Below, piece by piece: positions 1,008 through 19,142 of a stretch of 22,172 bases of DNA; the first letter of the stretch is position 1, and each line of letters starts with the position of its first letter. The notes under the pieces were generated by a model that ran no database searches, was not told the DNA's origin, and worked only from the letters and a program-made list of their open reading frames with translations. Both the position numbers and the translations under genes were made by a program. Source of the DNA: a virus (lineage: Duplodnaviria > Heunggongvirae > Uroviricota > Caudoviricetes); IMG/VR virus record IMGVR_UViG_2585427761_000022. One strand, written 5' to 3'.

Positions 1008-1355
1008 TTACTTATCACATAAATCAAATGCAGCCTTAGTGACATCCCCCAGACTCTTTTTTAACCCTGGGGCGGCATCATTATCTAGCCAAAATGGATT
1101 ATTGTTATCTAACGGTAACGCACCAAATGTTTTACCTTTTATTCGAGCCAAACCTGTAAGTGCATATAACTTATTATCGTCAAAATTCATCACATAAGGA
1201 TTACCATCAAGACACTGTAATTGAACCTCATCAGTATTAAATGGCCATACCCCATTGAAACTCTCACGTTCAATAGTTTTAAAAGGCATTGCGACGGCGG
1301 AAAAAGAAAACATAGATAAAAAAGTAACTAATAGTTGAACCTTTTTTACTTTCAT
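1008..1355 (-). CDS. Small secreted/periplasmic protein (115 aa) with a cleavable signal peptide and two Cys; possibly DUF2511/YebY-like (memory only)
   Basis: N-terminal signal peptide MKVKKVQLLVTFLSMFSFSAVA; RBS GAGGT 7 nt upstream of ATG; AT-rich; co-oriented between int and the upstream membrane-protein gene. Confidence 0.7.
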   Translation of the reverse strand: MKVKKVQLLVTFLSMFSFSAVAMPFKTIERESFNGVWPFNTDEVQLQCLDGNPYVMNFDDNKLYALTGLARIKGKTFGALPLDNNNPFWLDNDAAPGLKKSLGDVTKAAFDLCDK

Positions 1356-1384
1356 ATCATTACCTCAATTTAGCTCAAGTAAGA

Positions 1385-2035
1385 TTACAAATTAAAAAAC
1401 GCCCTAGAAATGACACCGCCTACCAAAACCCCTACGCAGATAAAGAATATTATTTCTTTTGGATAAAGTCGGATTAATTCTGAAGCACGAAGTCGGACTT
1501 CTGGTAAGGTCGAACTCTCTGTGTGGCTTGATGCCGATTGTTGCTCTAACCACGACAATGCAGACTGTAACTGAGAACGAGTAAGATCGTTTAAACGTCC
1601 TGTACCGAAATTGATATGGCAATACCGCAGAAGTTTTTGTCGAAGTCCACAGTCTTCACTGTTACGTAGTAATAAACTTACAAGAGCCTTACAGGCATCA
1701 TGATCTTTACATCGCTCAAGCATTGCATGCAGAAAACTCTCCGCTGTTTTATATTGATTTACTGTCATATCATCAATACCAGCTACACCAATCTCCGCAT
1801 GTACTTTTTGCCAAATAATAAACGCTTCAGTATTGCTAGCTTCTGCAATAGCAGCAACCAAGCTATTTAGCTCCTTACGCTGAGCCTTAAGCAAAGGGCG
1901 ATCGTCATCATCATTATTCGAAGGGATTGCGATATTGACGGTCTGAGAACCATCATATCGCTCTATCTGAATATTCTTTTCGTGAAAATCACGCCCAGCA
2001 ACGCGATTGTTTGAACCGTTTGAGTTGACGGCCAT
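1385..2035 (-). CDS. C-tail-anchored membrane protein (216 aa), function unknown; N-terminus shares the motif NNR[IV]AGRD[YF] with the repressor C-terminus
   Basis: Strong RBS GGGAGGTG before ATG; single C-terminal hydrophobic helix IIFFICVGVLVGGVI; Cys-rich central region; separated from the repressor gene by three stops TGA-TAG-TAG. Confidence 0.75.
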   Translation of the reverse strand: MAVNSNGSNNRVAGRDFHEKNIQIERYDGSQTVNIAIPSNNDDDDRPLLKAQRKELNSLVAAIAEASNTEAFIIWQKVHAEIGVAGIDDMTVNQYKTAESFLHAMLERCKDHDACKALVSLLLRNSEDCGLRQKLLRYCHINFGTGRLNDLTRSQLQSALSWLEQQSASSHTESSTLPEVRLRASELIRLYPKEIIFFICVGVLVGGVISRAFFNL

Positions 2036-2978: not shown

Positions 2979-3329
2979 ATGAAAAAAAACGCTAATAATC
3001 CATACTCCAAATTTCGTAATGGCGTAGAACGCCATGTACACCACGTCGCTACCAGTGCATCACGTAGTAACAGTCGCTATAACCTGAACGAGACGCACGC
3101 AACACCGGATGGCCACGCTGTAAAACAAATCGGCGAGCATGCCTGGCTGATTGAGAAAGCTGGAATCGTGGTCCACAAATGCCCACGCAATCCGTTTACC
3201 GGAAACCGCATTTTTGCATTGAACTGCGGCGACAATCACTTCGGGCAGGATTTCACATTATACGAAGCACTTCGCACGGTTGATCGTCTGCTTCGCGGGC
3301 AAAGTTTTATTAAACAGGCTGATTTATAA
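2979..3329 (+). CDS. Hypothetical early protein (116 aa)
   Basis: ORF in early operon, co-oriented and tightly packed; weak RBS; no recognisable domain. Confidence 0.55.
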   Translation: MKKNANNPYSKFRNGVERHVHHVATSASRSNSRYNLNETHATPDGHAVKQIGEHAWLIEKAGIVVHKCPRNPFTGNRIFALNCGDNHFGQDFTLYEALRTVDRLLRGQSFIKQADL

Positions 3330-5027: not shown

Positions 5028-7685
5028 ATGACGGCAGAGTACATCAGGGACTGGCAACAACCGCGCCACGCAGTGGGGCGTGAAGGAACGGGGATCCCCG
5101 CTCCTGAATCCGCGCTTTCCTCCTGGCTGGATGCCTACCGGGCAGAGAACGAGCGCCGCCAGGAAATGGCTGATGCGGCGTTCTCCGCCACGCCGCTGGG
5201 CAACCTGATTAATAAAAGCCTGGACGCACAGGAAAAACAGGACAAAACAATCACACTGGCAGGAGACGCCAGAAAACAGGCACGCGGCGCGGTAGATGAG
5301 GCCATGGCCTCACTGCGCCTGCTGCCGTCCTATCTGCGCGATCCGCTTATTCGCCACCTCTCCTTCCTGCGCAAAAAACAGGAAGCCGATCGTCAGAAAG
5401 GAAAAAACGCCAGGCAGGCAGAACGCTATGCGCGTGGGACCCTGCGCAAAATATTCGAACGTCTGGAGCGCACCGATCACCGCTGGCTGACATCGGGTTA
5501 TCGCTCCCTTGCCGGACGTGAACGCCTGGACGATTTGCTTTACCTGCCGCAACTCAACAAACACCAGATACAGACGCTGGCCACCATGACGGCGGCGATG
5601 TTCAGCAGCACCTTCGAAAAACTCTGCGATGGTTTTGGCGCGACTGATGGCGAGCTGACCATGGATGTAACGCTGAAGGCGTATCAGATGCTGGCCCGCA
5701 TGGCGTTACACTTACACGCCATGCCTCCGCATTATGACGCACTGACAACAGACAAAGACCGGAGGCACGAACCGGACACAGAACTGCTGCCGGGCGCAAT
5801 CCTTCGCCTGACCTGTGCGGAATGGTGGAAACGCAAACTGTGGCTGTTACGTTGCGAGTGGAGAGAAGAACAACTCCGCGCCGCCTGTCTGGTTTCCAGA
5901 AAAACATCGCCCTATCTGAGCCAGGACGCGTTAAGCGAGTTTCGCGCACAGCGCGAGAAAACACGCGATTTCCTGAAAAGTTTCATGCTGGAAAATGAAG
6001 ACGGGTTCACGATTGATCTCGAGACGGTGTATTACGCGGGAGTAAGTAACCCGGTTCACCGTAAGGCAGAAATGATGGCCACCATGAAGGGGCTGGAACT
6101 TCTGGCCGAAGCCCGTGGCGACAAAGCGGTGTTTCTGACTGTCACCTGCCCGTCAAAATACCACGCCACAACGGAGAACGGTCATCCGAATCCCAAATGG
6201 AACGGGGCCACAATGCGCGACTCCAGCGATTACCTGGTTAACACGTTTTTTGCGGCGGTCCGCAAAAAACTGAACCGCGACGACCTGCGCTGGTATGGCA
6301 TCCGCACGGTGGAGCCTCATCATGACGGCACCGTGCACTGGCATATGATGGTCTTTGCACATCCGGAAGAAATCGACACCATTGTGTCCCATACCCGCGA
6401 TATTGCCATTCAGGAAGACCGCCACGAGCTGGGCAATGATATTACTCCGCGCTTTAAGGTGGAGTATGTCGACGGCTCAAAAGGCACGCCAACCAGCTAC
6501 ATCGCCACCTACATCGGAAAGAACCTGGACAGCCGCGCCGTGGATGGCATCGACCCGAAAACGGACAAGCCACGCGTGGACCACGAAACCGGAAAATCAA
6601 TGGCCGAGAGCGTGGAACGCGCCATCGGCTGGGCGCGTCTTCACCGCGTCCGCCAGTTCCAGTTCTTTGGTATCCCCCCCCGTCAGGTATGGCGTGAACT
6701 CCGCCGCCTTGCCAGTCAGATGGCCCGCAACCCGGAAGGTCCACAACGTCTGGAAAATGACGCAATGGATGCGGTACTCGCTGCCGCTGATGCCGGGTGT
6801 TTTGCCACCTACATTGAGAAACAGGGTGGCGTACTTGTTCCACGCAAAGACTACCTGATTCGCACCGCCTACGACCTCGCAGAAGAGCTGAACGATTACG
6901 GCGAGCAAAGCGTACAGATTTACGGGATCTGGTCGCCACAAATCGGGGAATCTTCCCGCGTGTGCACGCACCCGGATAACTGGAAGCTGGTAAGACGTAA
7001 ACCGGAAGCGGAAGACAGCGCCCGCGAAAATGGTTTTGACCTTCAGGGCGGCCCTGCCGCCCCTTGGACTCGTGGCAATAACTGTCCCCGTGTACAGGAA
7101 ACGGACAACAACGGGACAGAACAGCCGGAAGAACGGCCAGCACCGTGGCCGCAGCTCCCTGACGGCGTTGAAGTGAACGAATGGATGCGCTCACTGAAAC
7201 GGCACGAACGCCGGGCGCTGATGCGTTCGCTTCGTGACAAACAGGCAAAAAACAGCAGTGATGAAGCGCAGAGCTGGACACAGAGCCGCAAACAGCAGCG
7301 GCCTTTGCCTGATAACCACGAATTACTCGCTAAAGAATGGCGGGAGTCTGCTGAATCTCTCGGCCTGCATATCGGTGAACAACAGATGCAGCACCTGTTA
7401 CGGGGCGGCAGTCTGTACGTTGACGGCAGCATCATTGCACCGCAGGGATTTGAAATTGTACGCAAACCGGATACCCGCCTGGACAGCCGAATCACGCAGC
7501 TCTGGCAGCGCCTGAGCCGTAATCATGGCGTAAGCAGCACGGAGATCCGCCATAACCCGGTCGCCAGCTATCTGGCACAGCTGGGGGCATCAGACCCTGA
7601 AGCCGCCGCACGCCTGGCATCGCCCCCATCAGTTGCGGCGGAACGCGGTGCGCAGCCAGCACATCATCACGGGATGCCGCCTTAA
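5028..7685 (+). CDS. A: Replication initiation protein A (rolling-circle HUH endonuclease) of P2-like phages, 885 aa with a long C-terminal extension
   Basis: HUH-like motif GTVHWHMMVF and paired active-site tyrosines in TSYIATYIGK (Y-x3-Y); size and position as P2 gpA. Confidence 0.85.
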   Translation: MTAEYIRDWQQPRHAVGREGTGIPAPESALSSWLDAYRAENERRQEMADAAFSATPLGNLINKSLDAQEKQDKTITLAGDARKQARGAVDEAMASLRLLPSYLRDPLIRHLSFLRKKQEADRQKGKNARQAERYARGTLRKIFERLERTDHRWLTSGYRSLAGRERLDDLLYLPQLNKHQIQTLATMTAAMFSSTFEKLCDGFGATDGELTMDVTLKAYQMLARMALHLHAMPPHYDALTTDKDRRHEPDTELLPGAILRLTCAEWWKRKLWLLRCEWREEQLRAACLVSRKTSPYLSQDALSEFRAQREKTRDFLKSFMLENEDGFTIDLETVYYAGVSNPVHRKAEMMATMKGLELLAEARGDKAVFLTVTCPSKYHATTENGHPNPKWNGATMRDSSDYLVNTFFAAVRKKLNRDDLRWYGIRTVEPHHDGTVHWHMMVFAHPEEIDTIVSHTRDIAIQEDRHELGNDITPRFKVEYVDGSKGTPTSYIATYIGKNLDSRAVDGIDPKTDKPRVDHETGKSMAESVERAIGWARLHRVRQFQFFGIPPRQVWRELRRLASQMARNPEGPQRLENDAMDAVLAAADAGCFATYIEKQGGVLVPRKDYLIRTAYDLAEELNDYGEQSVQIYGIWSPQIGESSRVCTHPDNWKLVRRKPEAEDSARENGFDLQGGPAAPWTRGNNCPRVQETDNNGTEQPEERPAPWPQLPDGVEVNEWMRSLKRHERRALMRSLRDKQAKNSSDEAQSWTQSRKQQRPLPDNHELLAKEWRESAESLGLHIGEQQMQHLLRGGSLYVDGSIIAPQGFEIVRKPDTRLDSRITQLWQRLSRNHGVSSTEIRHNPVASYLAQLGASDPEAAARLASPPSVAAERGAQPAHHHGMPP

Positions 7686-8496
7686 CATTCATGAACTCAT
7701 CCTTTGCGGTGATCTGCTGGAACGGCAAAATTTGCACCCCCTCTTTGCCCCCGTTGGGCGCATGGATGAGCACGTTTTTAAACGCGCCACCACCACGCGC
7801 ACCCTGTAACGTTTCTTTCAGGGAGTCCATGCTTTCGCGGTTTACCTGCGCTGCACCGATGTAGATGATGCACCCGGCGTGGGATCCATTGTCGTAATAC
7901 AGTTTTCTGAACATGTCCGCCGAATGAGACAGGCTGGCCGAGAGTAATGCGCCAAGATATTCCGGCATGCCGTAAATTTCCTGGTTAATGTCCGGATTCA
8001 TCAGGTGGCACACTTTGCCAGGGCGAAACTGAAACGCATCCTTGCCATCCTGCACATACCACCATGATTCAAGATCGCTTCCGCGTCGCATGTATTTCGC
8101 CAGGGCGTGCCGTAATTTAAGCGGTTCGCCGAACATATTGCTTCGAAGCTCAAGGAATGCGTTACCGAACACAAACCAGTCCAGCGCCAGCGCCGAGAAA
8201 TCCTGCCGGGAAAGCAGCGGGTGCGGGATGTAGCACCCGAGCAATACGTTGCGCTTAAAGTAAAGCGCAGACTGATGCCAGGACGTTTGCCGGGCGGCTC
8301 TTGCCAGACCGTACCAGTCCACCGGGGTTTCATACCACCGCCCGTTATCAGCACAGTACATATTGTCCAGCAAATCATGCCCGGTCAGGCGATAAGGACC
8401 ATCAAAAGTGAATGCACTGAGCGACGATTCTTTCCTGAGCGCATCAGCGAGATCAATGCGTGAACTCATGCGCACTTTTTTATTTTTTCTGCTCAT
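7492..8496 (-). CDS. Q: Portal (capsid portal vertex) protein, P2 gpQ-like
   Basis: 334-aa ORF with conserved portal segment AAHRVPPQLMG; ATG overlaps the terminase stop (TGATG coupling); convergent with A. Confidence 0.85.
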   Translation of the reverse strand: MSRKNKKVRMSSRIDLADALRKESSLSAFTFDGPYRLTGHDLLDNMYCADNGRWYETPVDWYGLARAARQTSWHQSALYFKRNVLLGCYIPHPLLSRQDFSALALDWFVFGNAFLELRSNMFGEPLKLRHALAKYMRRGSDLESWWYVQDGKDAFQFRPGKVCHLMNPDINQEIYGMPEYLGALLSASLSHSADMFRKLYYDNGSHAGCIIYIGAAQVNRESMDSLKETLQGARGGGAFKNVLIHAPNGGKEGVQILPFQQITAKDEFMNVKAASRDDVLAAHRVPPQLMGAMPGVRRLQGLMPPAVPDSWRPGYGGSPCCLRHDYGSGAARAA

Positions 8497-10246
8497 CAGA
8501 ACTCCATAACTGTGAAACGCTCGTTTTCTCCTTCGCCGCCAATTGGTTCGTTAATGACAGCAAGCATGGTTGCCCACGCAAGGTCGCCGTGGCTGCTCCC
8601 CCTCGCGCGGTCCGTTTCGTAAGTGATAAAGCCGCCCGGTGTTTTCACCTTACGCACGGCGTTAAAGGCCGCGACCAGCTCGCGTTCGGCGCGATCGTAT
8701 TCCCACCGCCCGGCACGCATTATTTGCAGCATTTTCAGTACAAGCGACCGTTTTGATGACAGCGTGAAGGTGTACGGAATAGCGGCAGGGAAAAACCGTT
8801 TCACTATCTGATAAACAGCCTCCCCGTTCCCGCCCGTCACATCAATGCCGATGTGTTCCACGTTGTAGCGATACGTGAAATCTTCAATGACTCTGGCCTG
8901 TTCTTCAAACTCCAGCCCCTGAACGCGTCGCGTCTCCACCGTTCGAAAACGGCCACCAGGAACAGCCGGAGGAACCACCACGGACACAGCGCCGCTGTCG
9001 CCGTTGCCACTGCTGCCGTTTGCGTCATACCCAATCCATACCGGACGATTCCCCATCGGGCGGGGAGCAAAAGGTTTCCAGTCTTTCCAGTCGTCGTATC
9101 CGTCAACACCGCAGCCAATCAGGATATTCAGGTTAAATGCCGATTCCCCTTCGCGGACAAACTCACACATATAGAGATTGAGGAACTCGTCTTCGGTGTT
9201 TTCATCACGAATTTCGTCGATATCGGTGTGTTTCCAGCCGTGATTAACCACATCTTCCAGCGTGACAATTTGCCGCCACGTCCGGTCAGGGCAGATAAGC
9301 CCGTTATGCAGCGTTTTCCAGTCCACAGAAAAACGCTGGCGTTTATGCGTGGCCTTTTTCTCGTTCCAGCGGTCGCCGTTCCAGTAGGCGTATGCTTCGT
9401 GCGTTTCGGTGGATGGCGTGGAGAAGTAGGTGCGCCGCAATCCGCTGAGGGTTGCCATAGCGCCAGCCACCTTGCGCAGTTCAGCAAAGCGACTGACCCA
9501 GAAAAATTCATCAAAATAAAAATTGCCCGTATAGGACTGCGCCGACGCAGCAGAAGTGCCGAGAAAATGCAGCTCTGCGCCGTTGGAGAGGATGATTTTA
9601 TCGCCCCCTTTCAGCTCCACATCAACTTCAGCCGCAGCCTTCTGAATAATGCTTTTAAACTGGAACGCCTGACGACGCGACGCAGACAAAAAATCTGGTT
9701 ACGCTGGTAAGGTTGCGCCACATCGTCACGCAGCGCCATCAGCAGTGCTTCCTGTGCAAAATACCAGGTCGCGCCAATCTGTCGGGATTTCAGGATCATC
9801 CTGTTACGTATCCCGGCTTCCCTGCAAAGGGTCAGGGAGTCAAACCAGCCCCGCTGATGCCACTCCAGCCTGCTGATGATTTTTTCCCGCAGTGCGGCAA
9901 TCTGTTCCGGCGTGAAATGATTTTTGAGTTTTTTCGCCCGGCCTTTCTTTCCTGTGGCCGTCGCATCCGGCTGGCCATCATGCATTTTTTTAAGCTGCCG
10001 GGTCAGCAGGTCTATTTCCTTAAAGTCACCGCCTGTTTTATTCTGTTTTTCAGTAAGCTAGATGAGGCGCGCATCGATGGACTGCGTGACACGCTGCACG
10101 GGTGGCGTTTCATCCCACTGGTCGCGTTTTTTCCACGCATAAATCGTGTTCGGGTTTATTCCCATCAGACGTGATATTTCTGCGGGCGGATAACCCTGCC
10201 AGTAAAGTTGCCGCGCACGCTGGCGCACAAAAGCGTCCTGAATCAT
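8496..10246 (-). pseudogene. P: Terminase large (ATPase) subunit, P2 gpP-like, disrupted by an in-frame TAG (10058-10060) and a 1-nt frameshift in an A6 tract (9688-9693)
   Basis: Three ORF-track fragments (10058-10246, 9611-9985, 8496-9689) that read as one terminase when joined: N-terminal HTH-like region, Walker A-like KSRQIGATWYFAQEAL, then large C-terminal domain. Confidence 0.7.
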
Positions 10247-10400
10247 TGCTCCCCCTGAGTAATTACAGGAAGATTACCCGCGCGCGAAACCGTTCTCCTT
10301 AACCCCCTGTTCTGGCCGTTTTCTTACAACAAAAGCCCTTTGTATCAGCCTGTTACGCTTTGCCATCATGACTGAAGAACCAGTCAGAGGGGCAAAAACT
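10247..10400. promoter_or_regulatory. Divergent late-promoter region between P (leftward) and O (rightward), expected site of Ogr/Delta-type activator-dependent promoters
   Basis: 154-bp intergenic region between divergent late operons, positionally as P2 P_P/P_O; no canonical TGT-N12-ACA dyad could be confirmed by eye. Confidence 0.4.
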
Positions 10401-11237
10401 ATGGCTAATGAAAAAAAGACATCCCGCAAAAAGTTTCGCGTGGCTGTCTCCGGATCAACTGTTGATGGCCGCGAAATCAGCCAGGTACATCTGCGTGAAG
10501 CCGCCGAGAACTTCAACCCGGATGTTTACGCTGCCCGCGTGAACGTTGAGCACTATCTCTCGCCATGCCCGTCAAGCGAATTTTCCGCAATGGGCGATGT
10601 CACCGCGCTGAGTACGGAAGATATTACGGAAGGCCCGCTGGCCGGACGTACTGCGCTGTATGCAGAAATCGAACCGACCGAGCGCATGAAGCAGCTTGTC
10701 GCTGACGGCAAGAAAATCTATTCCAGTATCGAACTGCACCCGCAGTTCTCCGTTAACGGGCGCGCCTATCTGGTCGGGCTGGCGATGACCGACACCCCGG
10801 CAAGCCTGGGCACTGAGCGCCTGAAATTCACGGCACAGCAACGTCAGGCGGTGATGACGTTCAACAGTATCCAGGGTGAAGCACCGCTTATCTCCGAAGC
10901 CATCGAGTCTGAAATCATCGAAATGGCAGAACAACGCCAGGAAGAAGGCACCCAGTGGTTTAACCGCGTAATGGGGATTATTGGTCGTGGCCGCAAAGCG
11001 GATGACGCCAGTTTCTCCCGAATTCAGGAAGCGGTGGAAGGCGTTGCAACGTCACAGGCCGACATTATCGACCGTTTTAATGTGCTGGAAACCCGCCATC
11101 AGCAGGACCGCCAGAAAATCACGTCACTGACCACAGAGCTGACAGCATTGAAGGAAAAACTGCGCACGCAGGACGGCGATCCGCAGAACCGCTTCACCGC
11201 AACGGGCGCAGCCTCCGACCAGCTGGCTGACTTCTGA
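10401..11237 (+). CDS. O: Capsid scaffolding protein, P2 gpO-like
   Basis: ATG at 10401 with GAGG upstream; about 279 aa; position between terminase and major capsid genes; acidic and coiled-coil-rich C-terminal half. Confidence 0.8.
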   Translation: MANEKKTSRKKFRVAVSGSTVDGREISQVHLREAAENFNPDVYAARVNVEHYLSPCPSSEFSAMGDVTALSTEDITEGPLAGRTALYAEIEPTERMKQLVADGKKIYSSIELHPQFSVNGRAYLVGLAMTDTPASLGTERLKFTAQQRQAVMTFNSIQGEAPLISEAIESEIIEMAEQRQEEGTQWFNRVMGIIGRGRKADDASFSRIQEAVEGVATSQADIIDRFNVLETRHQQDRQKITSLTTELTALKEKLRTQDGDPQNRFTATGAASDQLADF

Positions 11238-11260
11238 TAAGACAAAGGAGCAAATTTTTT

Positions 11261-12313
11261 ATGAATCTGGTGATGTCAGATATTACCCGCAACAAGCTGG
11301 GTTGCTATATGGCGCAGCAGGCGTCGCTTAACAATATCCCGGTATCTGCACTGGTATCGCGATTTACCGTGGAACCCGCGGTGCAGCAGCGTTTTGAAAA
11401 CGCCTCAAAGGAAAGTACCGAATTTACGAAAAGAATTAACGTGATCGGCGTGACCGACCAGAAAGGCGAAAAAATCCTCCTGGACACCACCGGGCCAATT
11501 GCGCGCACGAATAGCAGTTATGACGGCATCAAACGCCGTAACCCGAATAACGTGCTCGATATGAAGTCTCGTCAGTACCAGTGCGAACAGGTGAACTACG
11601 ATACCTTTATTTCGTACCCACAGCTTGATACCTGGGCAGCCCACAGCGATTTTCAGTCCCGTATCAGTACACAGATCGCCCGGCAGGTAGCGCTTGATCG
11701 CATCATGATTGGCTTTAACGGCACATCCCACGCCTACGAGTCTGATTTTCACACCAACAAGCTGCTTCAGGACGTTAACGTGGGCTGGCTGGAGCACATC
11801 AGAACCGATGCCAGCGAGCGCGTAATGAATGACGTGACGCTGACCTCCCGCAACATGGACAACACTGTGGCGCACGCGGGTAAGTATGCGAATGCCGATG
11901 CTCTGGTACAGGATGCGCGCTCATCCCTGCTGGATGAATGGCACAAGGAAGCTGACGACCTCGCGGTGATTATGGGGCGCAACCTGTTTAACTCGCTGCG
12001 TCTGCCCGTGCTGAACAGCATCAGCGGCCAGAATCCCAATGCGGAATTACTTGCCGGGCAGCTCATCCTGTCATCGCGCACCATTGGCGGGCTGGGCGTG
12101 TTCCTTGCGCCGTTCTTCCCGGATGCAACGATGCTTATCACCTCGTTCAACAACCTGTCGATTTACTGGCAGAAAGGTTCAATGCGTCGCCTGATGAAAG
12201 ACGAGCCGGAATACAACCGCATCGCCACCTACCAGTCCATCAATGACGCTTATGTCGTTGAAGACTATGGCAAGTGCGCGATGATCACTGGCCTGAAGTT
12301 CGCCGACAGCTAA
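11261..12313 (+). CDS. N: Major capsid protein, P2 gpN-like
   Basis: 350 aa; RBS AAGGAG; recalled similarity to P2 gpN (FTVEP..., GFNGT, LSIYWQ, YVVEDY blocks). Confidence 0.9.
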   Translation: MNLVMSDITRNKLGCYMAQQASLNNIPVSALVSRFTVEPAVQQRFENASKESTEFTKRINVIGVTDQKGEKILLDTTGPIARTNSSYDGIKRRNPNNVLDMKSRQYQCEQVNYDTFISYPQLDTWAAHSDFQSRISTQIARQVALDRIMIGFNGTSHAYESDFHTNKLLQDVNVGWLEHIRTDASERVMNDVTLTSRNMDNTVAHAGKYANADALVQDARSSLLDEWHKEADDLAVIMGRNLFNSLRLPVLNSISGQNPNAELLAGQLILSSRTIGGLGVFLAPFFPDATMLITSFNNLSIYWQKGSMRRLMKDEPEYNRIATYQSINDAYVVEDYGKCAMITGLKFADS

Positions 12314-12322
12314 TCAACTCAC

Positions 12323-12341
12323 GGCGGGCATCATGCCCGCC
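12323..12341 (+). other. Stem-loop (8-bp stem GGCGGGCA/TGCCCGCC, 3-nt loop) just downstream of N; possible attenuator, no U-tract
   Basis: Perfect inverted repeat 10 nt after the N stop codon. Confidence 0.35.
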
Positions 12342-12358
12342 TGTAACGGAGAGAAAAA

Positions 12359-13159
12359 ATGATTACTCCTGCACAACAACACTGGCAGAACGTGATGGCA
12401 CAGCGCGCAGGCCGGGCGAATGAAGGTGTGGACCACGCCGCGCGTACCGCGCATGAAGAGGTGCTGTATCGTCTGCGTCTGGCACAGGCCAGGCTAAAGG
12501 GCGTACAGGCCAGAAGCGCGAAAGCCGCCATCAAAAAAGAGTTGTTGCCGGACTTTTCCGGCTGGATTGAGGGAACGCTGGAGACTGACGGCGGGCAACA
12601 GGACGAAGTAATTGCCACGCTGATGGTGTGGGCGATTGACTGCGGCGATCTTCCGCTGGCGCTGCGTATTGGTGCATATGTGGTCCGTCACAACCTCATC
12701 ATGCCGGATAACTTTGGCCGTACTGCTGCCACGGTACTGACCGAAGAAATCTGCAACCCGGTACTGACGCAGGCCGGGACGGATGCCGACGCGGATTTAT
12801 CCGCCTTTATCGAACCACTGGACACACTTTGGGAAATTGTCGCCAACCAGGACATGCCGGACGAAGTGCGCGCCAAATTATGCAAGGCGTGTGCCTTTGC
12901 CCGTCGTGGCCTGACCGATGCAGACAACATGGCCTCATCACTGAAGCTGCTGCGCGAAGCGATGCACCTGAACCCGAACGCAGGTGTGAAACGCGAGATT
13001 GCAACCCTTTCCCGCGCCCTGAAAAAAGCCGATTCCGCAGCCGCACCAGAAGACGCCAGCGCACAGCAGACGCAGGACGAAAGCAGCAAAAGTAAAAAGA
13101 CAACGCAGAAGCCTGCAACACGAAAAACCACCGCGTCGCAGAAGGCGAAGCGCGGTTAA
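12359..13159 (+). CDS. M: Terminase small (endonuclease) subunit, P2 gpM-like
   Basis: 266 aa; RBS GGAGAG; position after N; basic Lys/Arg-rich C-terminal tail. Confidence 0.8.
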   Translation: MITPAQQHWQNVMAQRAGRANEGVDHAARTAHEEVLYRLRLAQARLKGVQARSAKAAIKKELLPDFSGWIEGTLETDGGQQDEVIATLMVWAIDCGDLPLALRIGAYVVRHNLIMPDNFGRTAATVLTEEICNPVLTQAGTDADADLSAFIEPLDTLWEIVANQDMPDEVRAKLCKACAFARRGLTDADNMASSLKLLREAMHLNPNAGVKREIATLSRALKKADSAAAPEDASAQQTQDESSKSKKTTQKPATRKTTASQKAKRG

Positions 13160-13174
13160 CGACTGACCCCGTCA

Positions 13175-13248
13175 GCGGGCGGCGTGCGCGGTGTTCCGGT
13201 TTGACTCCGTGACCGTTTACACCGCGCACCCACCGCCCGATTTTTTTT
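13175..13248 (+). terminator. Candidate Rho-independent terminator or attenuator: long imperfect inverted repeat (13175-13194 / 13219-13239) followed by T8 (13241-13248)
   Basis: GCGGGCGGCGTGCGCGGTGT ... ACACCGCGCACCCACCGCCCG then TTTTTTTT, between M and L. Confidence 0.5.
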
Positions 13249-13262
13249 CAGGAGTGAACTCC

Positions 13263-13757
13263 ATGAGTATGGTTGCCAGAACTGAACCAGGACCCGCAGA
13301 GGACGACATCACCGATACCGATGATGGCGACACTCGCATTTCAGCAGGTGCATTCTGGCCGGATATTGTGCTGCGCGAGCTGCGTCTGGCGGTACGACTG
13401 CCGGGCCGCGTGACCACCTCCCGCCTGCTGCATACCGCCACTGGGGCCGTGGCTCACGTTACCCGCGAACTGGAAGCGTGGCAGCAGGAACAGCAGGCGG
13501 CTGGCCATCAGACGCTGGCCGATGTTCCGGCACCCGTAATTAACGGAGAAAGCGTCAATCTCTGGCACTGGCGCAATGCTGTTTATACCGCCACACGTGC
13601 CCTGATTCTGGAGCGTTACCGCGATGCGGACACAACGGACAAGGGCGATCGCCGGGCGGACGCACTGGATATACAGACATCGGATTTGTGGCGCGATGTG
13701 AGCTGGGCCATCTCTGACATTCTGTGCCGCCCGCGAATCTTTGCGGAGTTGTGCTGA
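13263..13757 (+). CDS. L: Head completion/stabilisation protein, P2 gpL-like
   Basis: About 164 aa from ATG at 13263 with RBS AGGAG; position after M; stop overlaps the X start. Confidence 0.75.
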   Translation: MSMVARTEPGPAEDDITDTDDGDTRISAGAFWPDIVLRELRLAVRLPGRVTTSRLLHTATGAVAHVTRELEAWQQEQQAAGHQTLADVPAPVINGESVNLWHWRNAVYTATRALILERYRDADTTDKGDRRADALDIQTSDLWRDVSWAISDILCRPRIFAELC

Positions 13758-13957
13758 TGAAAGTGAAGGCACTGGAAGACGACACCGTGGATTCGCTCTG
13801 TTTCCGGTACTACGGCACGACGCAGGGCGTCACCGAAAAGGTGCTGGATGCCAACCCCGGACTCTGTCAGCAGGTATTTCTGGACGCCGGGCAGGAAGTG
13901 GAGATGCCGGAGCCGGAGAAGAAGAAACGAGAAATGATTCAGTTGTGGGGGGAGTAG
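13757..13957 (+). CDS. X: Tail protein X-like small protein (66 aa)
   Basis: ATGA overlap with the L stop; size and position as P2 gpX. Confidence 0.7.
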   Translation: MKVKALEDDTVDSLCFRYYGTTQGVTEKVLDANPGLCQQVFLDAGQEVEMPEPEKKKREMIQLWGE

Positions 13958-13959
13958 CA

Positions 13960-14283
13960 GTGAGCACCATTCAAACAGGGATCACAGAGCAGGTTATTGC
14001 GTGGCTCTTTGACCACCTGCCAACGGTGTATGCAGTAGGCGCGGCGGTCAGCATTTCAGCGCTGATGAGTCTTTATGACGGACGAACACTGGTTCAGACC
14101 GTAACGGGATCGCTGGCGTGCGGCGTTCTTGCCATGGCCGTGGCCGGGTCGTTGCGCTTCTTCGGGTTTCCTGAAGATGCCGTAACGTTTATCGGCGCAT
14201 CAATCGGTTTTATGGGGGCAGAGAAAGTACGCGACAAGGTTATTGCGGCCTTTAATCGCAGGGTGAAGGAGAAGGACGAATGA
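13960..14283 (+). CDS. Holin (about 107 aa, GTG start, multiple TM helices)
   Basis: RBS GGGGGAG before GTG at 13960; hydrophobic segments VYAVGAAVSISALMSL, VTGSLACGVLAMAVAGSL, VTFIGASIGFMGA; directly upstream of the endolysin. Confidence 0.65.
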   Translation: MSTIQTGITEQVIAWLFDHLPTVYAVGAAVSISALMSLYDGRTLVQTVTGSLACGVLAMAVAGSLRFFGFPEDAVTFIGASIGFMGAEKVRDKVIAAFNRRVKEKDE

Positions 14284-14672
14284 GCAACACATTTAAATTC
14301 AGCAGCCGGAGCGAAAAGAATTTGCAGGGCGTAAATCCTGATCTGGTGAAAGTGACCCGACGGGCACTGGAAATTTCGGAAGTGGATTTTGGTATCACCG
14401 AAGGATTGCGCAGCCGTTACCGCCAGAAGCAACTTGTGGCCACGGGTAAGAGCCATACCATAAACAGCCGCCACCTTACGGGGCATGCCGTGGATGTTGT
14501 GGCTTATGTCGGCAGCCAGGTGTCATGGGAATGGCCGCTGTACGAAAAAATCGCAGCAGCATTCAGACAGGCCAGCCAGGAACTGAATATTCCGGTGGAA
14601 TGGGGCGGCGACTGGAAGACCCTGAAAGACGGACCGCATTTTCAGTTACCACACGGAGCCTATCCGGCATGA
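14280..14672 (+). CDS. Endolysin, peptidase M15-type (zinc D-Ala-D-Ala carboxypeptidase / L-Ala-D-Glu endopeptidase family), not a P2 K-type lysozyme
   Basis: 130 aa; motif SRHLTGHAVDV typical of the VanY/M15 metal-binding site; between holin and spanins; ATGA coupling. Confidence 0.75.
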   Translation: MSNTFKFSSRSEKNLQGVNPDLVKVTRRALEISEVDFGITEGLRSRYRQKQLVATGKSHTINSRHLTGHAVDVVAYVGSQVSWEWPLYEKIAAAFRQASQELNIPVEWGGDWKTLKDGPHFQLPHGAYPA

Positions 14673-15142
14673 AGCTCTGGCCCACGCTTGGCGTCGCTTT
14701 CCTTCTGATTGCCGCATGGGGAACATCCATGCGTCTGTCGTGGTCGCTGGGCCGGGAGAACGCCAGAAACGAAGCGCAGACCAGCACCCTGAAAAGTACC
14801 GTCGACACACTGAATATCATCAGCGCCGGGGTACAGGATATGCAGCAGGTGCTGGCTCAACTCCGCGCGGAAAATCAGCAACGCAATCAGGACGGAGAGG
14901 TAAGACGTGAACAGCTACGCAACGATATTGCAAAAGATGAATGCGCCCACGCTTTGCCTGACGCTCGTTTTACTGACAGGTTGCGCAGGCACGCAGAACG
15001 CGCCACGGCCAGCGCCGTCAATCCGGCTTATACCGCAGACGCTGACCATGCCGGTAACGCCTCCCCCCTTCCCTGCCCCACCCACATGGGGAAACCTCGG
15101 AATATGGGGCGACCGCCTTCTGGATGCACTGGAAACCTGTAA
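14669..15142 (+). CDS. i-spanin (Rz / LysB-like), N-terminal TM plus coiled coil
   Basis: ATG at 14669 overlaps the endolysin stop; TM segment LGVAFLLIAAWGT followed by a Gln/Arg-rich helical region. Confidence 0.7.
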   Translation: MKLWPTLGVAFLLIAAWGTSMRLSWSLGRENARNEAQTSTLKSTVDTLNIISAGVQDMQQVLAQLRAENQQRNQDGEVRREQLRNDIAKDECAHALPDARFTDRLRRHAERATASAVNPAYTADADHAGNASPLPCPTHMGKPRNMGRPPSGCTGNL

Positions 15143-15218
15143 CGCGGATAAACGGGCCATTGCTGAACTGGATAAGAGAATAGCCGAACTGACACACCAG
15201 ACGGGAGTAACACAATGA
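14907..15218 (+). CDS. o-spanin (Rz1 / LysC-like) outer-membrane lipoprotein, starting inside the i-spanin gene in the +1 frame and extending past it
   Basis: Lipobox LLTGC; Pro-rich mature region; GTG at 14907 with RBS GGAGAGG (ATG at 14937 is an alternative start); classic overlapped spanin architecture. Confidence 0.6.
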   Translation: MNSYATILQKMNAPTLCLTLVLLTGCAGTQNAPRPAPSIRLIPQTLTMPVTPPPFPAPPTWGNLGIWGDRLLDALETCNADKRAIAELDKRIAELTHQTGVTQ

Positions 15219-17095
15219 CCAGTAAGAACTTTGCACTGATTACAGCCATGACACAGGCTGAACTGACCCGGAAAGTGAATGAATATCTTGCGAAGGGGTG
15301 GCATCTTCAGGGGGACACACGGGTAGCTTACGAGCCCGGCACCCCGTGGTATCTCATGCAGGCCATGGTGGCCGATGGTGCCACCGAGACGCCCTCTGAG
15401 CCATTACCAAACAACAAGACGCCGGAATGGTACTACGTGGTTGTGCTTGCCGGGCAGTCCAACGGCATGGCTTACGGTGAAGGGCTTCCGTTACCGGATT
15501 CTTACGATGCTCCGGATCCGCGCATTAAACAGCTTGCGCGCCGCAGTACGGTAACCCCGGGTGGAGAGGGTTGTACGTATAACGACATCATCCCGGCTGA
15601 CCACTGTCTGCATGATGTGCAGGATATGAGTACGCTGAATCATCCGAAGGCGGACCTGAGCAAAGGTCAGTACGGCTGTGTGGGACAGGGACTTCATATT
15701 GCCAAAAAACTACTCCCGTATATCCCGAATAACGCGGGGATCCTGCTGGTACCATGCTGTCGTGGTGGTTCGGCATTCACTCAGGGCGCGGAGGGAACAT
15801 TCAGTACGACCACGGGGGCCAGCCAGGATTCGGCGCGCTGGGGTGCGGGTAAGCCGTTATATCAGGACCTGATCGCACGCACCAAAGCGGCATTACAGAA
15901 GAACCCGAAAAATGTGTTGCTGGCGGTGTGCTGGATGCAGGGCGAATTTGACATGAGCGCTGCCACCTACGCACAGCAACCGGACCTGTTCACGGCCATG
16001 CTGAAGCAGTTCCGTACTGACCTTTCCGGATTTAACGCGCAGTGCCATGGCGGCAGTGCTGCAGTTATACCGTGGATTTGTGGCGACACGACGTATTACT
16101 GGAAAAACACATACGGCACACAGTATGACTCCGTCTACGGCGCGTACAAAAACAGGGAGAGCGACAACGTTTTCTTTGTGCCGTTCATGACCGACGGTAA
16201 CGGCAACAACACGCCCACCAACTTACCGGCAGAAGACCCGGATATTGCTGATGCAGGTTATTACGGCGCGCAATCCCGTAGTAATGGTAATTGGGTATCG
16301 TCAAATCGTCCGACACATTTCAGTTCATGGGCGCGCAGGGGCATTATTTCGGATCGCCTGGCAACCGCTATTCTGAACGCAGTTGGTCGAACCAGCGCCT
16401 TCATCAGCGGTACCGCACCGGAAATCAAACCCTCGCCCGGCGGCGACACTCCATCGGGGCCGTCTGATGGTGACACATCCGTTCGTACAGTCTCCCTGCT
16501 GCCGACAGCCGGAGAGGCTGCTGCGCAGGGCTGGACCATCACCGGCGGCAGTGTTGCGCTGGAAGATGGTGTGTTTAAGGTTACCAAGCAGAGCAATAAA
16601 ACTTGGTCCCTGATGCATCCGGTGGATGACGCAGTCTCCCTGCTGACACGGGGTGGCAGACTGAGCTGTAAGTTTCGACTGTCAGGCGCACTGACCAACA
16701 ACCAGTTCGGTCTGGGAATTTATCTGTATACCGATGTAGCGTTACCTGACGTCGTGGCGATGACCGGGACTGGTAACCCGTTCCTGATGTCGTTCTTCAC
16801 CCAGACCACAGACGGCAAACTGAATCTGATGCATCACAAGAAAGCCGGAAACACAAAGTTGGGTGAGTTCGGGAATTACAGTAACGACTGGCAGACGCTG
16901 GAGCTGGTGTTCACCGCCGGCAGTGCCACGGTTACTCCGAAACTGAATGGAGTGGCTGGCCCGGCATTCCAGGTCATAAAAGACAGTCTGACACTGGGGC
17001 TGAATGCGCTGACGTTAACTGATATCACTAAAAATGCCGCGTACGGCGTCGATATCGGCAGCCTGGTGCTGGAAATCAATAATCCCGCAGTATAA
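15215..17095 (+). CDS. NanS-p-like sialate (9-O-acetyl) esterase moron: N-terminal DUF1737-like domain, SASA/SGNH-type esterase domain, C-terminal putative carbohydrate-binding domain
   Basis: 626 aa; N-terminus FALITAMTQAELTRKVNEYLAKGWHLQG (DUF1737-like); catalytic-type motif VVLAGQSNGMAYGEG; ATG overlaps the o-spanin stop; no equivalent gene in P2. Confidence 0.7.
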   Translation: MTSKNFALITAMTQAELTRKVNEYLAKGWHLQGDTRVAYEPGTPWYLMQAMVADGATETPSEPLPNNKTPEWYYVVVLAGQSNGMAYGEGLPLPDSYDAPDPRIKQLARRSTVTPGGEGCTYNDIIPADHCLHDVQDMSTLNHPKADLSKGQYGCVGQGLHIAKKLLPYIPNNAGILLVPCCRGGSAFTQGAEGTFSTTTGASQDSARWGAGKPLYQDLIARTKAALQKNPKNVLLAVCWMQGEFDMSAATYAQQPDLFTAMLKQFRTDLSGFNAQCHGGSAAVIPWICGDTTYYWKNTYGTQYDSVYGAYKNRESDNVFFVPFMTDGNGNNTPTNLPAEDPDIADAGYYGAQSRSNGNWVSSNRPTHFSSWARRGIISDRLATAILNAVGRTSAFISGTAPEIKPSPGGDTPSGPSDGDTSVRTVSLLPTAGEAAAQGWTITGGSVALEDGVFKVTKQSNKTWSLMHPVDDAVSLLTRGGRLSCKFRLSGALTNNQFGLGIYLYTDVALPDVVAMTGTGNPFLMSFFTQTTDGKLNLMHHKKAGNTKLGEFGNYSNDWQTLELVFTAGSATVTPKLNGVAGPAFQVIKDSLTLGLNALTLTDITKNAAYGVDIGSLVLEINNPAV

Positions 17096-17118
17096 GGAAG
17101 AGCAGGAGAGCAAAACAG

Positions 17119-17586
17119 ATGCTTAAGACAAACAGTCTGCGAGAGTCCATGCTTCATGGATGTCGGTGGTGCCAGGCTAATCCCGAGAAATTCACCATTT
17201 TCGTGGAGAGCGGCAACATTGAAACGACCGGAGAAGCGCCCTCGTTTGTTTACCGCTATCAGATGGTGATGTTTATCATGGATTACGCCGGAGAGCTGGA
17301 CGACCTCACGCTGCCGCTGCTGGCGTGGTTATCCGAAAATCAGCCACAGTTGTTGCTCAATCCGGAGCGTAATCAGGACATCAAATTTTCTGCCGTTATC
17401 AATGACGATGACAGCGCCGATCTCCTGTTTACGCTCCCCCTGCGGGAACGCGTTCGCATCACGCGCAACAGTCAGGGCACACCGCAGGCAGAACACCTGC
17501 CGGAGCCAAAACCCCGTCTGCCTTCTTCCGAAGGCGACTGGTCGCATGTATTCCAGGATGTGACGTGGGGTGAAAGCGATGGATAA
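17119..17586 (+). CDS. R: Tail completion protein, P2 gpR-like
   Basis: 155 aa, same size as P2 gpR; RBS AGGAGAG; first gene after the lysis/moron block. Confidence 0.8.
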   Translation: MLKTNSLRESMLHGCRWCQANPEKFTIFVESGNIETTGEAPSFVYRYQMVMFIMDYAGELDDLTLPLLAWLSENQPQLLLNPERNQDIKFSAVINDDDSADLLFTLPLRERVRITRNSQGTPQAEHLPEPKPRLPSSEGDWSHVFQDVTWGESDG

Positions 17587-18214
17587 GGCATTCACCCGCG
17601 TGGATGAAACCTTTGAGGCTATCCGCGACAGCCTGAATCAGCAGGCCATCAATAACATCGCCAGAAAGCTGGCACAGGATTTACGTCGCGCCCAGCAGGC
17701 ACGTATCCGGTCACAAAAAGCGCCGGACGGGACCGAATGGACACCACGCAGACGCCGCGTAACCCGGATACAGGAGCGCATTCGCTTTATCTGGAATAAC
17801 GAAGCACGCACGCTGAAAAACTGGCATCACGACACGGGGAAATACGGGCGAACCATTACCGGGTGGGATGAGGATAAAAACAATATCCGCACGTTTTACC
17901 GGGATGACATCGACCGTTTTCTGGAAATACGCACCCGGCGCATCAACCAGGACAGCACAAAGCGCGTCCCCATGTTCGTAAAACTGCGCACCGCCCGCTA
18001 CCTGAAAGCCCGTGCAGATGCCTCCGGTGTGACGGTGGGTTACAGCGGCGTGGCCGCACGTATTGCACGCGTTCATCAGTTCGGTGAGCGCGATCAGGTT
18101 GCGCCGGGCATTTTCACCGATTACCCGGTACGTGAGCTGTTGGGTATCAGCCAGGCAGATGAGCGCCTGATTTATAACACGGTGCTGGGCCGGATTGCGG
18201 AGGCTGTACGGTGA
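17579..18214 (+). CDS. S: Tail completion / virion morphogenesis protein, P2 gpS-like (about 211 aa, longer than the ~150 aa I recall for P2 S)
   Basis: ATG at 17579 overlapping the R 3' end; position between R and V. Confidence 0.7.
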   Translation: MDKAFTRVDETFEAIRDSLNQQAINNIARKLAQDLRRAQQARIRSQKAPDGTEWTPRRRRVTRIQERIRFIWNNEARTLKNWHHDTGKYGRTITGWDEDKNNIRTFYRDDIDRFLEIRTRRINQDSTKRVPMFVKLRTARYLKARADASGVTVGYSGVAARIARVHQFGERDQVAPGIFTDYPVRELLGISQADERLIYNTVLGRIAEAVR

Positions 18215-18792
18215 GCGCAGAACTCATGCGACTGCTGAGCAACATCATCCGCACCGGGATCATCTCTGAAGTTGATGAGAAGTCCTGGCGCGTGCGCGTT
18301 CGCAGCGGCGAACTGGAAACAGGCTGGTTGCGCTGGAACACCACGCGCGCGGGAGCCTTCAATGTGTGGCTGCCGCCATCACCAGGCGAACAGGTGGTAA
18401 TTGCCTGCATTGGCGGCAACCCGGAAACCGCCATGATAATTGGCAGCCTGTGGAGTGATGCCAGTCCGGCCCCCGGCAAAAGCCTGAAAGAAATCGTGGT
18501 CAGCGCGCCGGATGGCGCGGTGTTCCGCTACGACGCAGACGCTGGCGCACTGAGCGCCAGCGGCATGAAAACAGCCACCCTGCAGGCATCCGTCAGCGTG
18601 ACACTGGATACGCCCGTCGTGGAATGCACAAACCTTCTGAGAACAGCGACGCTTGACGTCACAAAAGGGGGAAAGATGAGCGGCAATATCACGCACAGCG
18701 GCGGCAACTTCACCTCAAACGGCATCACAGTGCATACGCATAAACACGGTGGCGTTAAAGGTGGCAGCGATTCGACAGGAGGCCCGCAGTGA
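18211..18792 (+). CDS. V: Baseplate spike/assembly protein, P2 gpV-like
   Basis: GTG start with RBS GGAGG and GTGA overlap with S; recalled conserved block IRTGII..EQV.I..GG as in P2 gpV. Confidence 0.8.
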   Translation: MSAELMRLLSNIIRTGIISEVDEKSWRVRVRSGELETGWLRWNTTRAGAFNVWLPPSPGEQVVIACIGGNPETAMIIGSLWSDASPAPGKSLKEIVVSAPDGAVFRYDADAGALSASGMKTATLQASVSVTLDTPVVECTNLLRTATLDVTKGGKMSGNITHSGGNFTSNGITVHTHKHGGVKGGSDSTGGPQ

Positions 18793-19139
18793 CAGCCCGC
18801 TACACAGGAATGAACCCGGACGGGACGGGAAACCTGAATGATATGGAGCACCTGAAACAGTCAGCCAGGGACATCCTGACCACCCCGCTGGCCAGCCGGG
18901 TTATGCGACGGGAATATGGCAGCCTTGTACCTGATTTGATTGACGAACCCATGAATAACACCACGCGTCTGCAATGCATGAGTGCTGCCGTGATTGCGCT
19001 GACACGATGGGAACCCCGCATTGCCCTGGACGCCATCGACGTTGTCTGGAAAGCGGGAGGCCGCGCCGGGGTGACGCTGTCGGGCACAGTCATGCAGACC
19101 ATGCAGAATGTTGAGTTAACCATCACGCTGAGGGAGTAA
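18789..19139 (+). CDS. W: Baseplate wedge protein, P2 gpW-like (GPW/gp25 family)
   Basis: 116 aa; GTG start with RBS AGGAGG; GTGA overlap with V; position. Confidence 0.8.
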   Translation: MTARYTGMNPDGTGNLNDMEHLKQSARDILTTPLASRVMRREYGSLVPDLIDEPMNNTTRLQCMSAAVIALTRWEPRIALDAIDVVWKAGGRAGVTLSGTVMQTMQNVELTITLRE

Positions 19140-19142
19140 ATC

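What the first reader, a model, noticed from the sequence alone, without database searches (positions are those of the whole stretch)
7492..7685. Replication gene A and portal gene Q overlap convergently by 194 bp; the classical P2 cargo locus and an obvious cos are missing
In P2 the interval between A and Q holds the variable tin/old locus and the cos site. Here the 885-aa A ORF (about 120 aa longer than the 761 aa I recall for P2 gpA, with a low-complexity Ala/Pro-rich tail) runs to 7685, while Q on the opposite strand ends at 7492. No intergenic DNA remains and I could not find a P2/186-type cohesive-end sequence (GGCG.GGCGGGGAAAGCA) by eye anywhere in the window. Either cos lies inside coding sequence, or a rearrangement has fused the 3' ends and removed cos and cargo. 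The second reading fits the damaged terminase gene. It also means any accessory genes in this prophage must sit elsewhere, such as the int-proximal cassette, the lysis-proximal moron, or the Z/fun site beyond the window.
Basis: partly seen in the sequence, partly recalled or inferred. Interest (0 to 1): 0.5.

Follow-up and report, generated by a model that had tools for sequence, protein, structure and literature searches.

The report
Deletion scar in decaying P2-like prophage
The overlap of the replication and portal genes is the scar of a roughly 3-kb deletion that removed both genes' ends, the accessory genes and the probable DNA-packaging site of a P88-type (P2-like) E. coli prophage, which is ordinary prophage decay.

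Summary
ORF A (5028-7685, +, 885 aa) and ORF Q (7492-8496, -, 334 aa) overlap by 194 bp and no intergenic DNA remains.

The cause is a 2,983-bp deletion relative to the closest intact relative, the prophage next to yecA in E. coli 55989. The deletion is 2,975 bp relative to phage P88. The junction lies at window 7611-7621 in an imperfect 11-bp microhomology, CGCC(T/C)GGCATC.

The deletion removed:
- A codons 866-940;
- a parM/stbB-like cassette and two unnamed genes;
- a conserved non-coding block just 3' of Q, which is the probable cos region;
- Q codons 296-348.

Each truncated gene then reads into the antisense of the other until a chance stop codon. That read-through produces the "overlap".

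The exact chimeric proteins occur on at least 19 and 14 contigs from independent sequencing runs and sources, so the junction is real and inherited. Those contigs form a nested series: deletion alone with terminase intact; then a terminase frameshift; then either a Q63* nonsense codon plus a lysB stop-loss (the window's state) or a scaffold-gene frameshift. The deletion therefore came first.

Intact P88-type relatives also lack the P2/186 cos 19-mer, so its absence from the window proved nothing.

The element is a defective prophage of low novelty.

The parts
5028..7622 (+). Native part of replication gene A (codons 1-865 of 940). The Phage_GPA catalytic domain at aa 179-503 is intact.
   Evidence: tblastn of the FORC_069 A protein covers residues 1-865 at 99.65%. 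There is one substitution against 55989. Pfam result.
7048..7085 (+). Probable replication origin (nick region) inside A, retained in the window.
   Evidence: 30/38 nt match to the annotated ori nick region of P2, although the two A proteins are only 31% identical. This is an inference from similarity.
7611..7621 (.). Deletion junction: the single retained copy of the microhomology CGCCTGGCATC.
   Evidence: In relatives the A side reads CGCCTGGCATC and the Q side reads CGCCCGGCATC. The exact shared core is GGCATC. The simulated probability of at least 6 bp of microhomology at a random A/Q junction is 0.0018.
7623..7685 (+). Aberrant tail of the A ORF: 20 codons plus the stop, read from the antisense strand of Q.
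   Evidence: This DNA is 97-99% identical to the portal gene of P88 and phage 500465-2. Protein comparison.
7492..7611 (-). Aberrant tail of the Q ORF: 39 codons plus the stop, read from the antisense strand of A.
   Evidence: This DNA is 99% identical to the A gene of P88. The Q translation diverges from the native sequence after residue 295.
7612..8496 (-). Native part of portal gene Q (codons 1-295 of 348). The conserved C-terminal segment is lost.
   Evidence: tblastn result. Homology between native Q and P2 gpQ runs to residue 341, so a conserved segment is missing.
8496..10246 (-). Pseudogene of the terminase large subunit P. It carries Q63* (TAG at 10058-10060, G>A at 10060 on the + strand) and a 1-bp deletion in an A-run at about 9688 (codon ~186).
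   Evidence: Three-frame translation against the reference. Base-level differences against 55989. Both lesions are absent from sister contigs L131 and L140 that carry the same deletion.

Best explanation
The window carries a P88-type (Xuanwuvirus-like, family Peduoviridae) prophage integrated next to yecA in E. coli. It lost about 3 kb through one microhomology-mediated deletion between the 3' part of A and the 3' part of Q.

The deletion removed the last 75 codons of A, the A-Q accessory cassette (parM/stbB-like genes plus two unnamed genes), both operon terminators, the conserved Q-proximal non-coding block that most likely contains cos, and the last 53 codons of Q. With their own stop codons gone, A and Q each run on into the other's antisense strand (20 and 39 codons). 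This creates a 194-bp 'overlap' with no biological role.

The element can no longer package DNA: it has no cos region and a truncated portal. Under relaxed selection it then picked up further lesions, namely a terminase frameshift, terminase Q63* and a lysB stop-loss.

Shown: the deletion, its breakpoints, its inheritance and the order of the lesions. Inferred: that the conserved block is cos, that the truncated A and Q proteins do not work, and that the mechanism was short-homology illegitimate recombination or replication slippage.
For: Collinearity and breakpoints:
- Window 1-7621 matches the E. coli 55989 prophage at 99.87% and window 7611-21503 at 99.08%, with 2,983 bp missing between the two segments.
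- The same break is seen against phage P88 (2,975 bp) and against FORC_069 (3,626 bp).
- The junction has a 6-bp exact (10/11) microhomology, P = 0.0018 by simulation.

Sizes and losses:
- Native A is 940 aa and native Q is 348 aa in all intact relatives.
- The window keeps 865 and 295 native residues.
- The lost Q C-terminus is conserved as far as P2 gpQ.

The deleted DNA and the candidate cos:
- The deleted DNA has no copy elsewhere in the window.
- The conserved core GGTGACGGGGGAACAGCC is absent at up to 3 mismatches.
- That core lies in a block conserved as far as Novemvirus phiT5282H, whose A-Q interval holds little else.
- In 113 of 120 IMG/VR loci the core lies 200-937 bp from the 3' end of a convergent Q homologue.

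The junction is real and inherited:
- The exact chimeric Q and A proteins are on at least 19 and 14 contigs from Logan, ENA and NCBI sources.
- The 40-nt junction is present in all 12 loci fetched.

Order of events:
- L131 and L140 have the deletion and an intact 583-aa terminase.
- L133 and L135 add the frameshift.
- L138 and L142 add a gpO frameshift.
- The window, L132, L134, L139 and L141 add Q63* and the lysB stop-loss.
Against: - The cos cut site of P88-type phages has not been mapped. No phage record ends at the conserved motif, and the one linear record that ends inside the block (P88_4B11) ends about 85 bp upstream of the motif. 'cos deleted' therefore rests on position and conservation.
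- Whether A lacking 75 C-terminal residues still works is unknown.
- No read-level data were examined. The reality of the junction rests on independent assemblies.
- The junction was not found in GTDB representative genomes or JGI metagenome contigs, so the allele is confined to a narrow lineage.
Confidence: 0.95

Rival explanations
1. The overlap is a native, functional arrangement of a compact P2-like phage, with cos embedded in coding sequence.
For: Both ORFs are long and open across the junction. phiT5282H shows that A-Q intervals can be as short as 447 bp.
Against: None of 50,697 phage records and none of 5,426 complete E. coli genomes spans the junction. Both proteins lose conserved native C-termini and gain sequence that is simply the antisense of the partner gene. 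No candidate cos motif is present. Terminase is a pseudogene.
Confidence: 0.01
2. The junction is an assembly or chimera artefact in the source contig.
For: The window alone cannot exclude it. The junction is absent from complete E. coli genomes and representative genomes.
Against: The identical junction and chimeric proteins were recovered from many independent runs and three data sources, with lineage-specific SNPs and nested secondary lesions. By inference, an imperfect 11-bp overlap is too short to mislead k-mer assemblers.
Confidence: 0.01
3. The junction arose by recombination between two different P2-like prophages (left arm P88-like, right arm Gemsvirus 500465-2-like), not by a deletion within one prophage.
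For: In the phage collection the best hits for the two arms are different records. Against FORC_069 the two arms differ in identity, 99.87% versus 96.55%.
Against: A single prophage in E. coli 55989, at the same chromosomal site, matches both arms at 99.8% or better near the junction, with gene order and orientation preserved. P88 itself also matches both sides. A simple deletion is enough.
Confidence: 0.03
4. The deletion is real, but the remnant is kept by selection, for example as a tailocin-like particle producer or as the carrier of immunity or the SASA-esterase gene. It would then be more than neutral decay.
For: All lesions seen in the lineage hit replication, packaging, head or lysis genes (A, cos, Q, P twice, O, lysB). 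int, the repressor, the early genes and all tail genes in the window stay intact. The allele persists across many isolates.
Against: There are only about 6 events and the concentration is weak (rough estimate P ~0.02, uncorrected). Divergence since the deletion is tiny (0-3 SNPs per 7 kb), so intact genes may simply not have been hit yet. No functional data exist.
Confidence: 0.06

Closest known systems
P2-like prophage next to yecA in E. coli 55989 (NC_011748.1 2142257-2168471)
   Same: Same integration side (int next to yecA). Left arm 99.87% identical, and right arm about 99.8% identical near the junction. Same gene order.
   Different: It has the full A (940 aa), parM, a stbB-like gene, two unnamed genes, the roughly 510-bp non-coding block, the full Q (348 aa) and an intact terminase (583 aa). 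Its DUF4761 gene is the pseudogene instead. It has two fewer 132-bp repeats in the tail fibre gene.
Escherichia phage P88 (Xuanwuvirus P88, NC_026014), an inducible P2-like coliphage (PMC5285337)
   Same: A region 96.6% identical, and 99% identical just left of the junction. Q side 97% identical. Same A / parM / partition gene / non-coding block / Q layout as the inferred ancestor.
   Different: P88 is complete and yields phage on induction. The window lacks 2,975 bp that correspond to P88 positions 8551-11525.
Bacteriophage P2 A-cos-Q hotspot (tin/old locus; Rousset et al. 2022, PMC9122126)
   Same: Same architecture: A and Q are convergent, with accessory genes and cos between them. Q is 47% identical to P2 gpQ and A is 31% identical to P2 gpA. 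The ori-like island inside A is conserved.
   Different: The P88 type has a 940-aa A, parM/stbB-like cargo instead of tin/old, and no GGCGAGGCGGGGAAAGCAC cos 19-mer. In the window the whole interval is gone.
Defective or cryptic prophages of E. coli (for example the P2-related remnants of E. coli K-12 and B; from general knowledge)
   Same: Loss of packaging and replication functions by deletion, then point pseudogenisation, while the element stays integrated.
   Different: This one is at an early stage. One 3-kb deletion and three point lesions lie in 22 kb, and every other gene is still full-length.

Membership tests
P2-like prophage (Peduoviridae), P88/Xuanwuvirus type | int-C-cox-early genes-A on one arm; convergent Q-P, then O-N-M-L, lysis and tail genes on the other | tested here: met
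   tblastn of 40 reference proteins shows full synteny with the FORC_069 prophage.
P2-like prophage (Peduoviridae), P88/Xuanwuvirus type | High nucleotide identity to P88-group genomes | tested here: met
   95-97% identity to P88-group phages over A. 97-99% on both sides of the junction against P88.
Packaging-competent P2-like phage | Full-length portal protein | tested here: not met
   295 of 348 native residues remain. The conserved C-terminal segment is replaced by 39 antisense-derived residues.
Packaging-competent P2-like phage | Intact terminase large subunit | tested here: not met
   Q63* and a frameshift at about codon 186.
Packaging-competent P2-like phage | cos region next to the 3' end of Q | tested here: not met
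   The entire conserved non-coding block is deleted and has no copy elsewhere in the window. The identity of the block as cos is inferred, not mapped.
P2/186-type cos | 19-nt cohesive-end consensus GGCG(A/T)GGCGGGGAAAGCA(C/T) | tested here: not met
   Absent at up to 3 mismatches from the window apart from one chance-level hit. Also absent from the intact relatives P88 and FORC_069.
A-Q accessory/defence hotspot of P2-like phages (Rousset et al. 2022) | One or more accessory genes between gpA and gpQ | tested here: not met
   No intergenic DNA is left. The ancestral cargo (ParM, Plasmid_stab_B and two unnamed proteins) gives no PADLOC hits.
Microhomology-mediated (illegitimate) deletion | A short direct repeat at both ancestral breakpoints, with one copy kept at the junction | tested here: met
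   CGCCTGGCATC and CGCCCGGCATC in the relatives, with a single CGCCTGGCATC in the window. P(at least 6 bp exact) = 0.0018.

The most novel reading that the evidence does not exclude
The packaging-dead prophage is not only decaying. It may be retained in its E. coli lineage as a domesticated element, for example as a P2-tail tailocin-like producer or as the carrier of immunity and the DUF1737-SASA-DUF6645 esterase. This reading rests on all lesions so far being confined to replication, head, packaging and lysis genes, while the regulatory and tail modules stay intact.
Probability: 0.06. Interest if true: 0.45.

Novelty: already known. Interest (0 to 1): 0.13.

Why it matters
The main value is for annotation. 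The 885-aa 'A' and 334-aa 'Q' should be called pseudogenes, or truncated fusions across a deletion, and the prophage should be scored as defective. It should not be counted as a P2-like phage with an empty A-Q hotspot.

Two smaller points may be useful.
- The independent assemblies give a clean, ordered record of prophage decay in nature: the deletion of cos/Q/A came first and point lesions followed.
- P88-type phages do not carry the P2/186/P4 cos 19-mer. They have a different conserved block next to Q. This affects cos-based searches for P2-like phages and for satellites able to exploit them.

Tried and rejected
- P2/186 cos consensus: searched in the window, P88 and FORC_069 at up to 3 mismatches. 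Only one chance-level hit inside A appeared in each.
- blastn-short of the 391-bp P2 cos region against the deleted intervals of relatives: nothing above chance.
- Phage records whose ends fall at the conserved motif, as a way to map cos: none found. P88_4B11 ends about 85 bp upstream, and the basis for that record's ends is unknown.
- Literature on the P88 cos or the motif: nothing. The P88 paper does not mention cos.
- Exact junction searches in GTDB representative genomes and JGI metagenome contigs: 0 hits. The allele was found only through exact-protein look-up.
- Inter-prophage recombination: considered because the two arms differ in identity against FORC_069. Set aside once 55989 matched both arms.
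- PADLOC on the lost cargo and on the window's accessory genes: no hits.

Full report
**Observation.** The ORF list and the translations confirm a + strand ORF at 5028-7685 (885 aa) and a - strand ORF at 7492-8496 (334 aa). They overlap by 194 bp and there is no intergenic DNA. Pfam identifies them as the P2-type replication protein (Phage_GPA, E 3.6e-131) and a portal protein. The next - strand ORF (8496-9689) carries the terminase large-subunit domains but lacks its N-terminal third.

**What the junction is.** blastn against phage genomes splits the region cleanly. Window 6400-7621 matches the replication gene of P88-group phages at 95-97%. Window 7611-8600 matches portal genes, 97.6% to phage 500465-2. 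No record spans both.
- Against P88 itself, the left side is 321/322 identical up to window 7621. The right side starts at window 7611 and is 97% identical. The two segments lie 2,975 bp apart in P88.
- In P88 that interval holds the last 229 bp of a 940-aa A gene, parM, a partition gene, several small ORFs, a non-coding stretch and the last roughly 170 bp of a 348-aa portal gene.
- The same break appears against the prophage of E. coli FORC_069, with 3,626 bp missing.
- It also appears against the closest relative found, the prophage next to yecA in E. coli 55989. There the left arm is 99.87% identical, the right arm is about 99.8% identical near the junction, and 2,983 bp are missing.
- A three-way view of the junction shows CGCCTGGCATC on the A side and CGCCCGGCATC on the Q side of the intact relative. 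The window has a single CGCCTGGCATC. The exact shared core is 6 bp. In a simulation of random A/Q junctions, 6 bp or more of microhomology occurs with P = 0.0018.
- This is the signature of short-homology illegitimate recombination or replication slippage. That mechanism is an inference.

**Consequences for the two genes.**
- A keeps 865 of 940 native residues, followed by 20 residues (PPSVAAERGAQPAHHHGMPP) translated from the antisense of Q.
- Q keeps 295 of 348 native residues, followed by 39 residues translated from the antisense of A.
- The lost Q segment is conserved as far as P2 gpQ, where the alignment runs to residue 341.
That extra length is native to this family (940 aa against 761 aa, 31% identity). 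The gene here is truncated.
- The 194-bp overlap is therefore read-through across a deletion scar.
- No terminator-like hairpin lies in 7200-8000. The intact interval has a bidirectional terminator ahead of the conserved block.

**cos.** The P2/186 19-mer is absent from the window, but it is equally absent from P88 and FORC_069. The 391-bp P2 cos region has no similarity to the deleted interval of relatives. P88 is an inducible phage (PMC5285337), so this group must use a different cos.

Just 3' of Q, all relatives share a non-coding block of about 470 bp. The core of that block is conserved as far as the Novemvirus phiT5282H, whose A-Q interval is only 447 bp. The core consists of three TGCAC repeats with a T-run, followed by an invariant GCGCAGGTGACGGGGGAACAGCCC.
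- The 19-mer GGTGACGGGGGAACAGCCC matches the P2 cohesive end at 13 of 19 positions by my own ungapped count.
- The 18-mer occurs in at least 120 IMG/VR contigs, and 119 of these carry the same block.
- In 113 of them a Q homologue is convergent, with its 3' end 200-937 bp away, median 314 bp. P2's cos lies 168 bp from the Q stop codon.
- I therefore take this block to be the cos region. The cut site is unmapped. No record ends at the motif, and the linear P88_4B11 record ends about 85 bp upstream of it.
- The whole block lies inside the deletion. Neither the deleted DNA nor the 18-mer (at up to 3 mismatches) occurs anywhere in the window.

**Is the junction real, and when did it arise?** It is absent from 5,426 complete E. 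coli genomes, from GTDB representative genomes and from JGI metagenome contigs. Exact-sequence look-ups tell a different story. The chimeric Q is on at least 19 contigs and the chimeric A on at least 14. These come from independent SRA runs (Logan), an ENA metagenome scaffold and NCBI assembly GCA_001285965.1. In the long contigs (L138, L139) the element again sits next to yecA-tyrP. All 12 fetched loci contain the 40-nt junction.

They form a nested series:
- L131 and L140: the deletion with an intact 583-aa terminase.
- L133 and L135: the above plus the 1-bp terminase frameshift.
- L138 and L142: the above plus a frameshift in the scaffold gene O.
- The window, L132, L134, L139 and L141: deletion and frameshift, plus terminase Q63* (10060 G>A) and a stop-loss in the lysB/DUF2570 gene (15076, TGA>TGC, 22 residues added).

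The deletion therefore came first, and point lesions accumulated afterwards. This is what relaxed selection on an element that can no longer be packaged would produce. Every other gene in the window is full-length against the reference.

**Other retained features.** The P2 ori nick region matches window 7048-7085 at 30/38 nt, although the two A proteins are only 31% identical. The origin probably survives, about 540 bp upstream of the junction.

**Comparison with known systems.** The layout is the classical P2 A-cargo-cos-Q hotspot (Rousset et al. 2022, PMC9122126). In the P88 lineage the cargo is a ParM/StbB-like cassette. The window is a P88-type prophage by synteny and identity. It fails every test for a packaging-competent phage: portal, terminase and cos region. 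Prophage inactivation by deletion followed by pseudogenisation is textbook biology.

**Verdict.** Novelty and interest are low. The residual uncertainties are the exact cos cut site of P88-type phages and whether the remnant is under any selection.

Noticed in passing
window 8496-10246 (-); sister loci L131, L133, L138, L140, L142: The terminase gene carries two independent lesions, Q63* at 10058-10060 and a 1-bp deletion at about 9688. Sister contigs with the same A-Q deletion have neither lesion, or only the frameshift. Together they give an ordered decay series.
   Followed up: yes
window 14669-15142 (+): The lysB/Rz-like DUF2570 gene has a stop-loss (TGA>TGC at 15074-15076) that extends it from 135 to 157 aa. 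Only the contigs that also carry terminase Q63* share it (L139, L141).
   Followed up: partly
L008 11715-11960; L001 9560-9800; L009 1501-1652 (not in the window): P88-type, Gemsvirus and Novemvirus phages lack the P2/186/P4 cos 19-mer. They share a conserved block next to Q: three TGCAC repeats with a T-run, then an invariant GCGCAGGTGACGGGGGAACAGCCC. At least 119 IMG/VR contigs carry it. It is probably an unmapped cos type, which matters for deciding which satellites could exploit these phages.
   Followed up: partly
window 7048-7085 (+): An island of DNA similarity (30/38 nt) to the annotated P2 ori nick site lies inside A, although the two A proteins are only 31% identical. It is probably the replication origin.
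   Followed up: partly
window 15215-17095 (+): A 626-aa ORF between the lysis and tail genes has DUF1737, SASA (sialate O-acetylesterase-like carbohydrate esterase) and DUF6645 domains. From memory this resembles the NanS-p esterases of Stx prophages. It is intact in every relative examined that covers the gene.
   Followed up: no
window 21152-21767 (+): A 132-bp (44-aa) tandem repeat with 4.7 copies at 95% identity lies inside the tail fibre gene H. The window has two more copies than the 55989 prophage.
   Followed up: partly
window 1008-2035 (-): Two accessory genes sit between int and the repressor: a DUF2511/YebY-like protein (115 aa) and a 216-aa membrane protein (annotated Flk_N). Both are identical in FORC_069 and neither has a PADLOC hit.
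   Followed up: no
L008 9685-10963; L001 7528-8803 (relatives, deleted in the window): Intact P88-type phages carry a plasmid-type parM plus stbB-like (Plasmid_stab_B) partition cassette in the A-Q hotspot. This is unexpected cargo for an integrating P2-like phage.
   Followed up: no
window 2979-3329 (+) versus L008 4740-5087: The DUF4761 gene is intact in the window but is a 1-bp-insertion pseudogene in the otherwise intact 55989 prophage. Small lesions are therefore lineage-specific even in 'intact' relatives.
   Followed up: no
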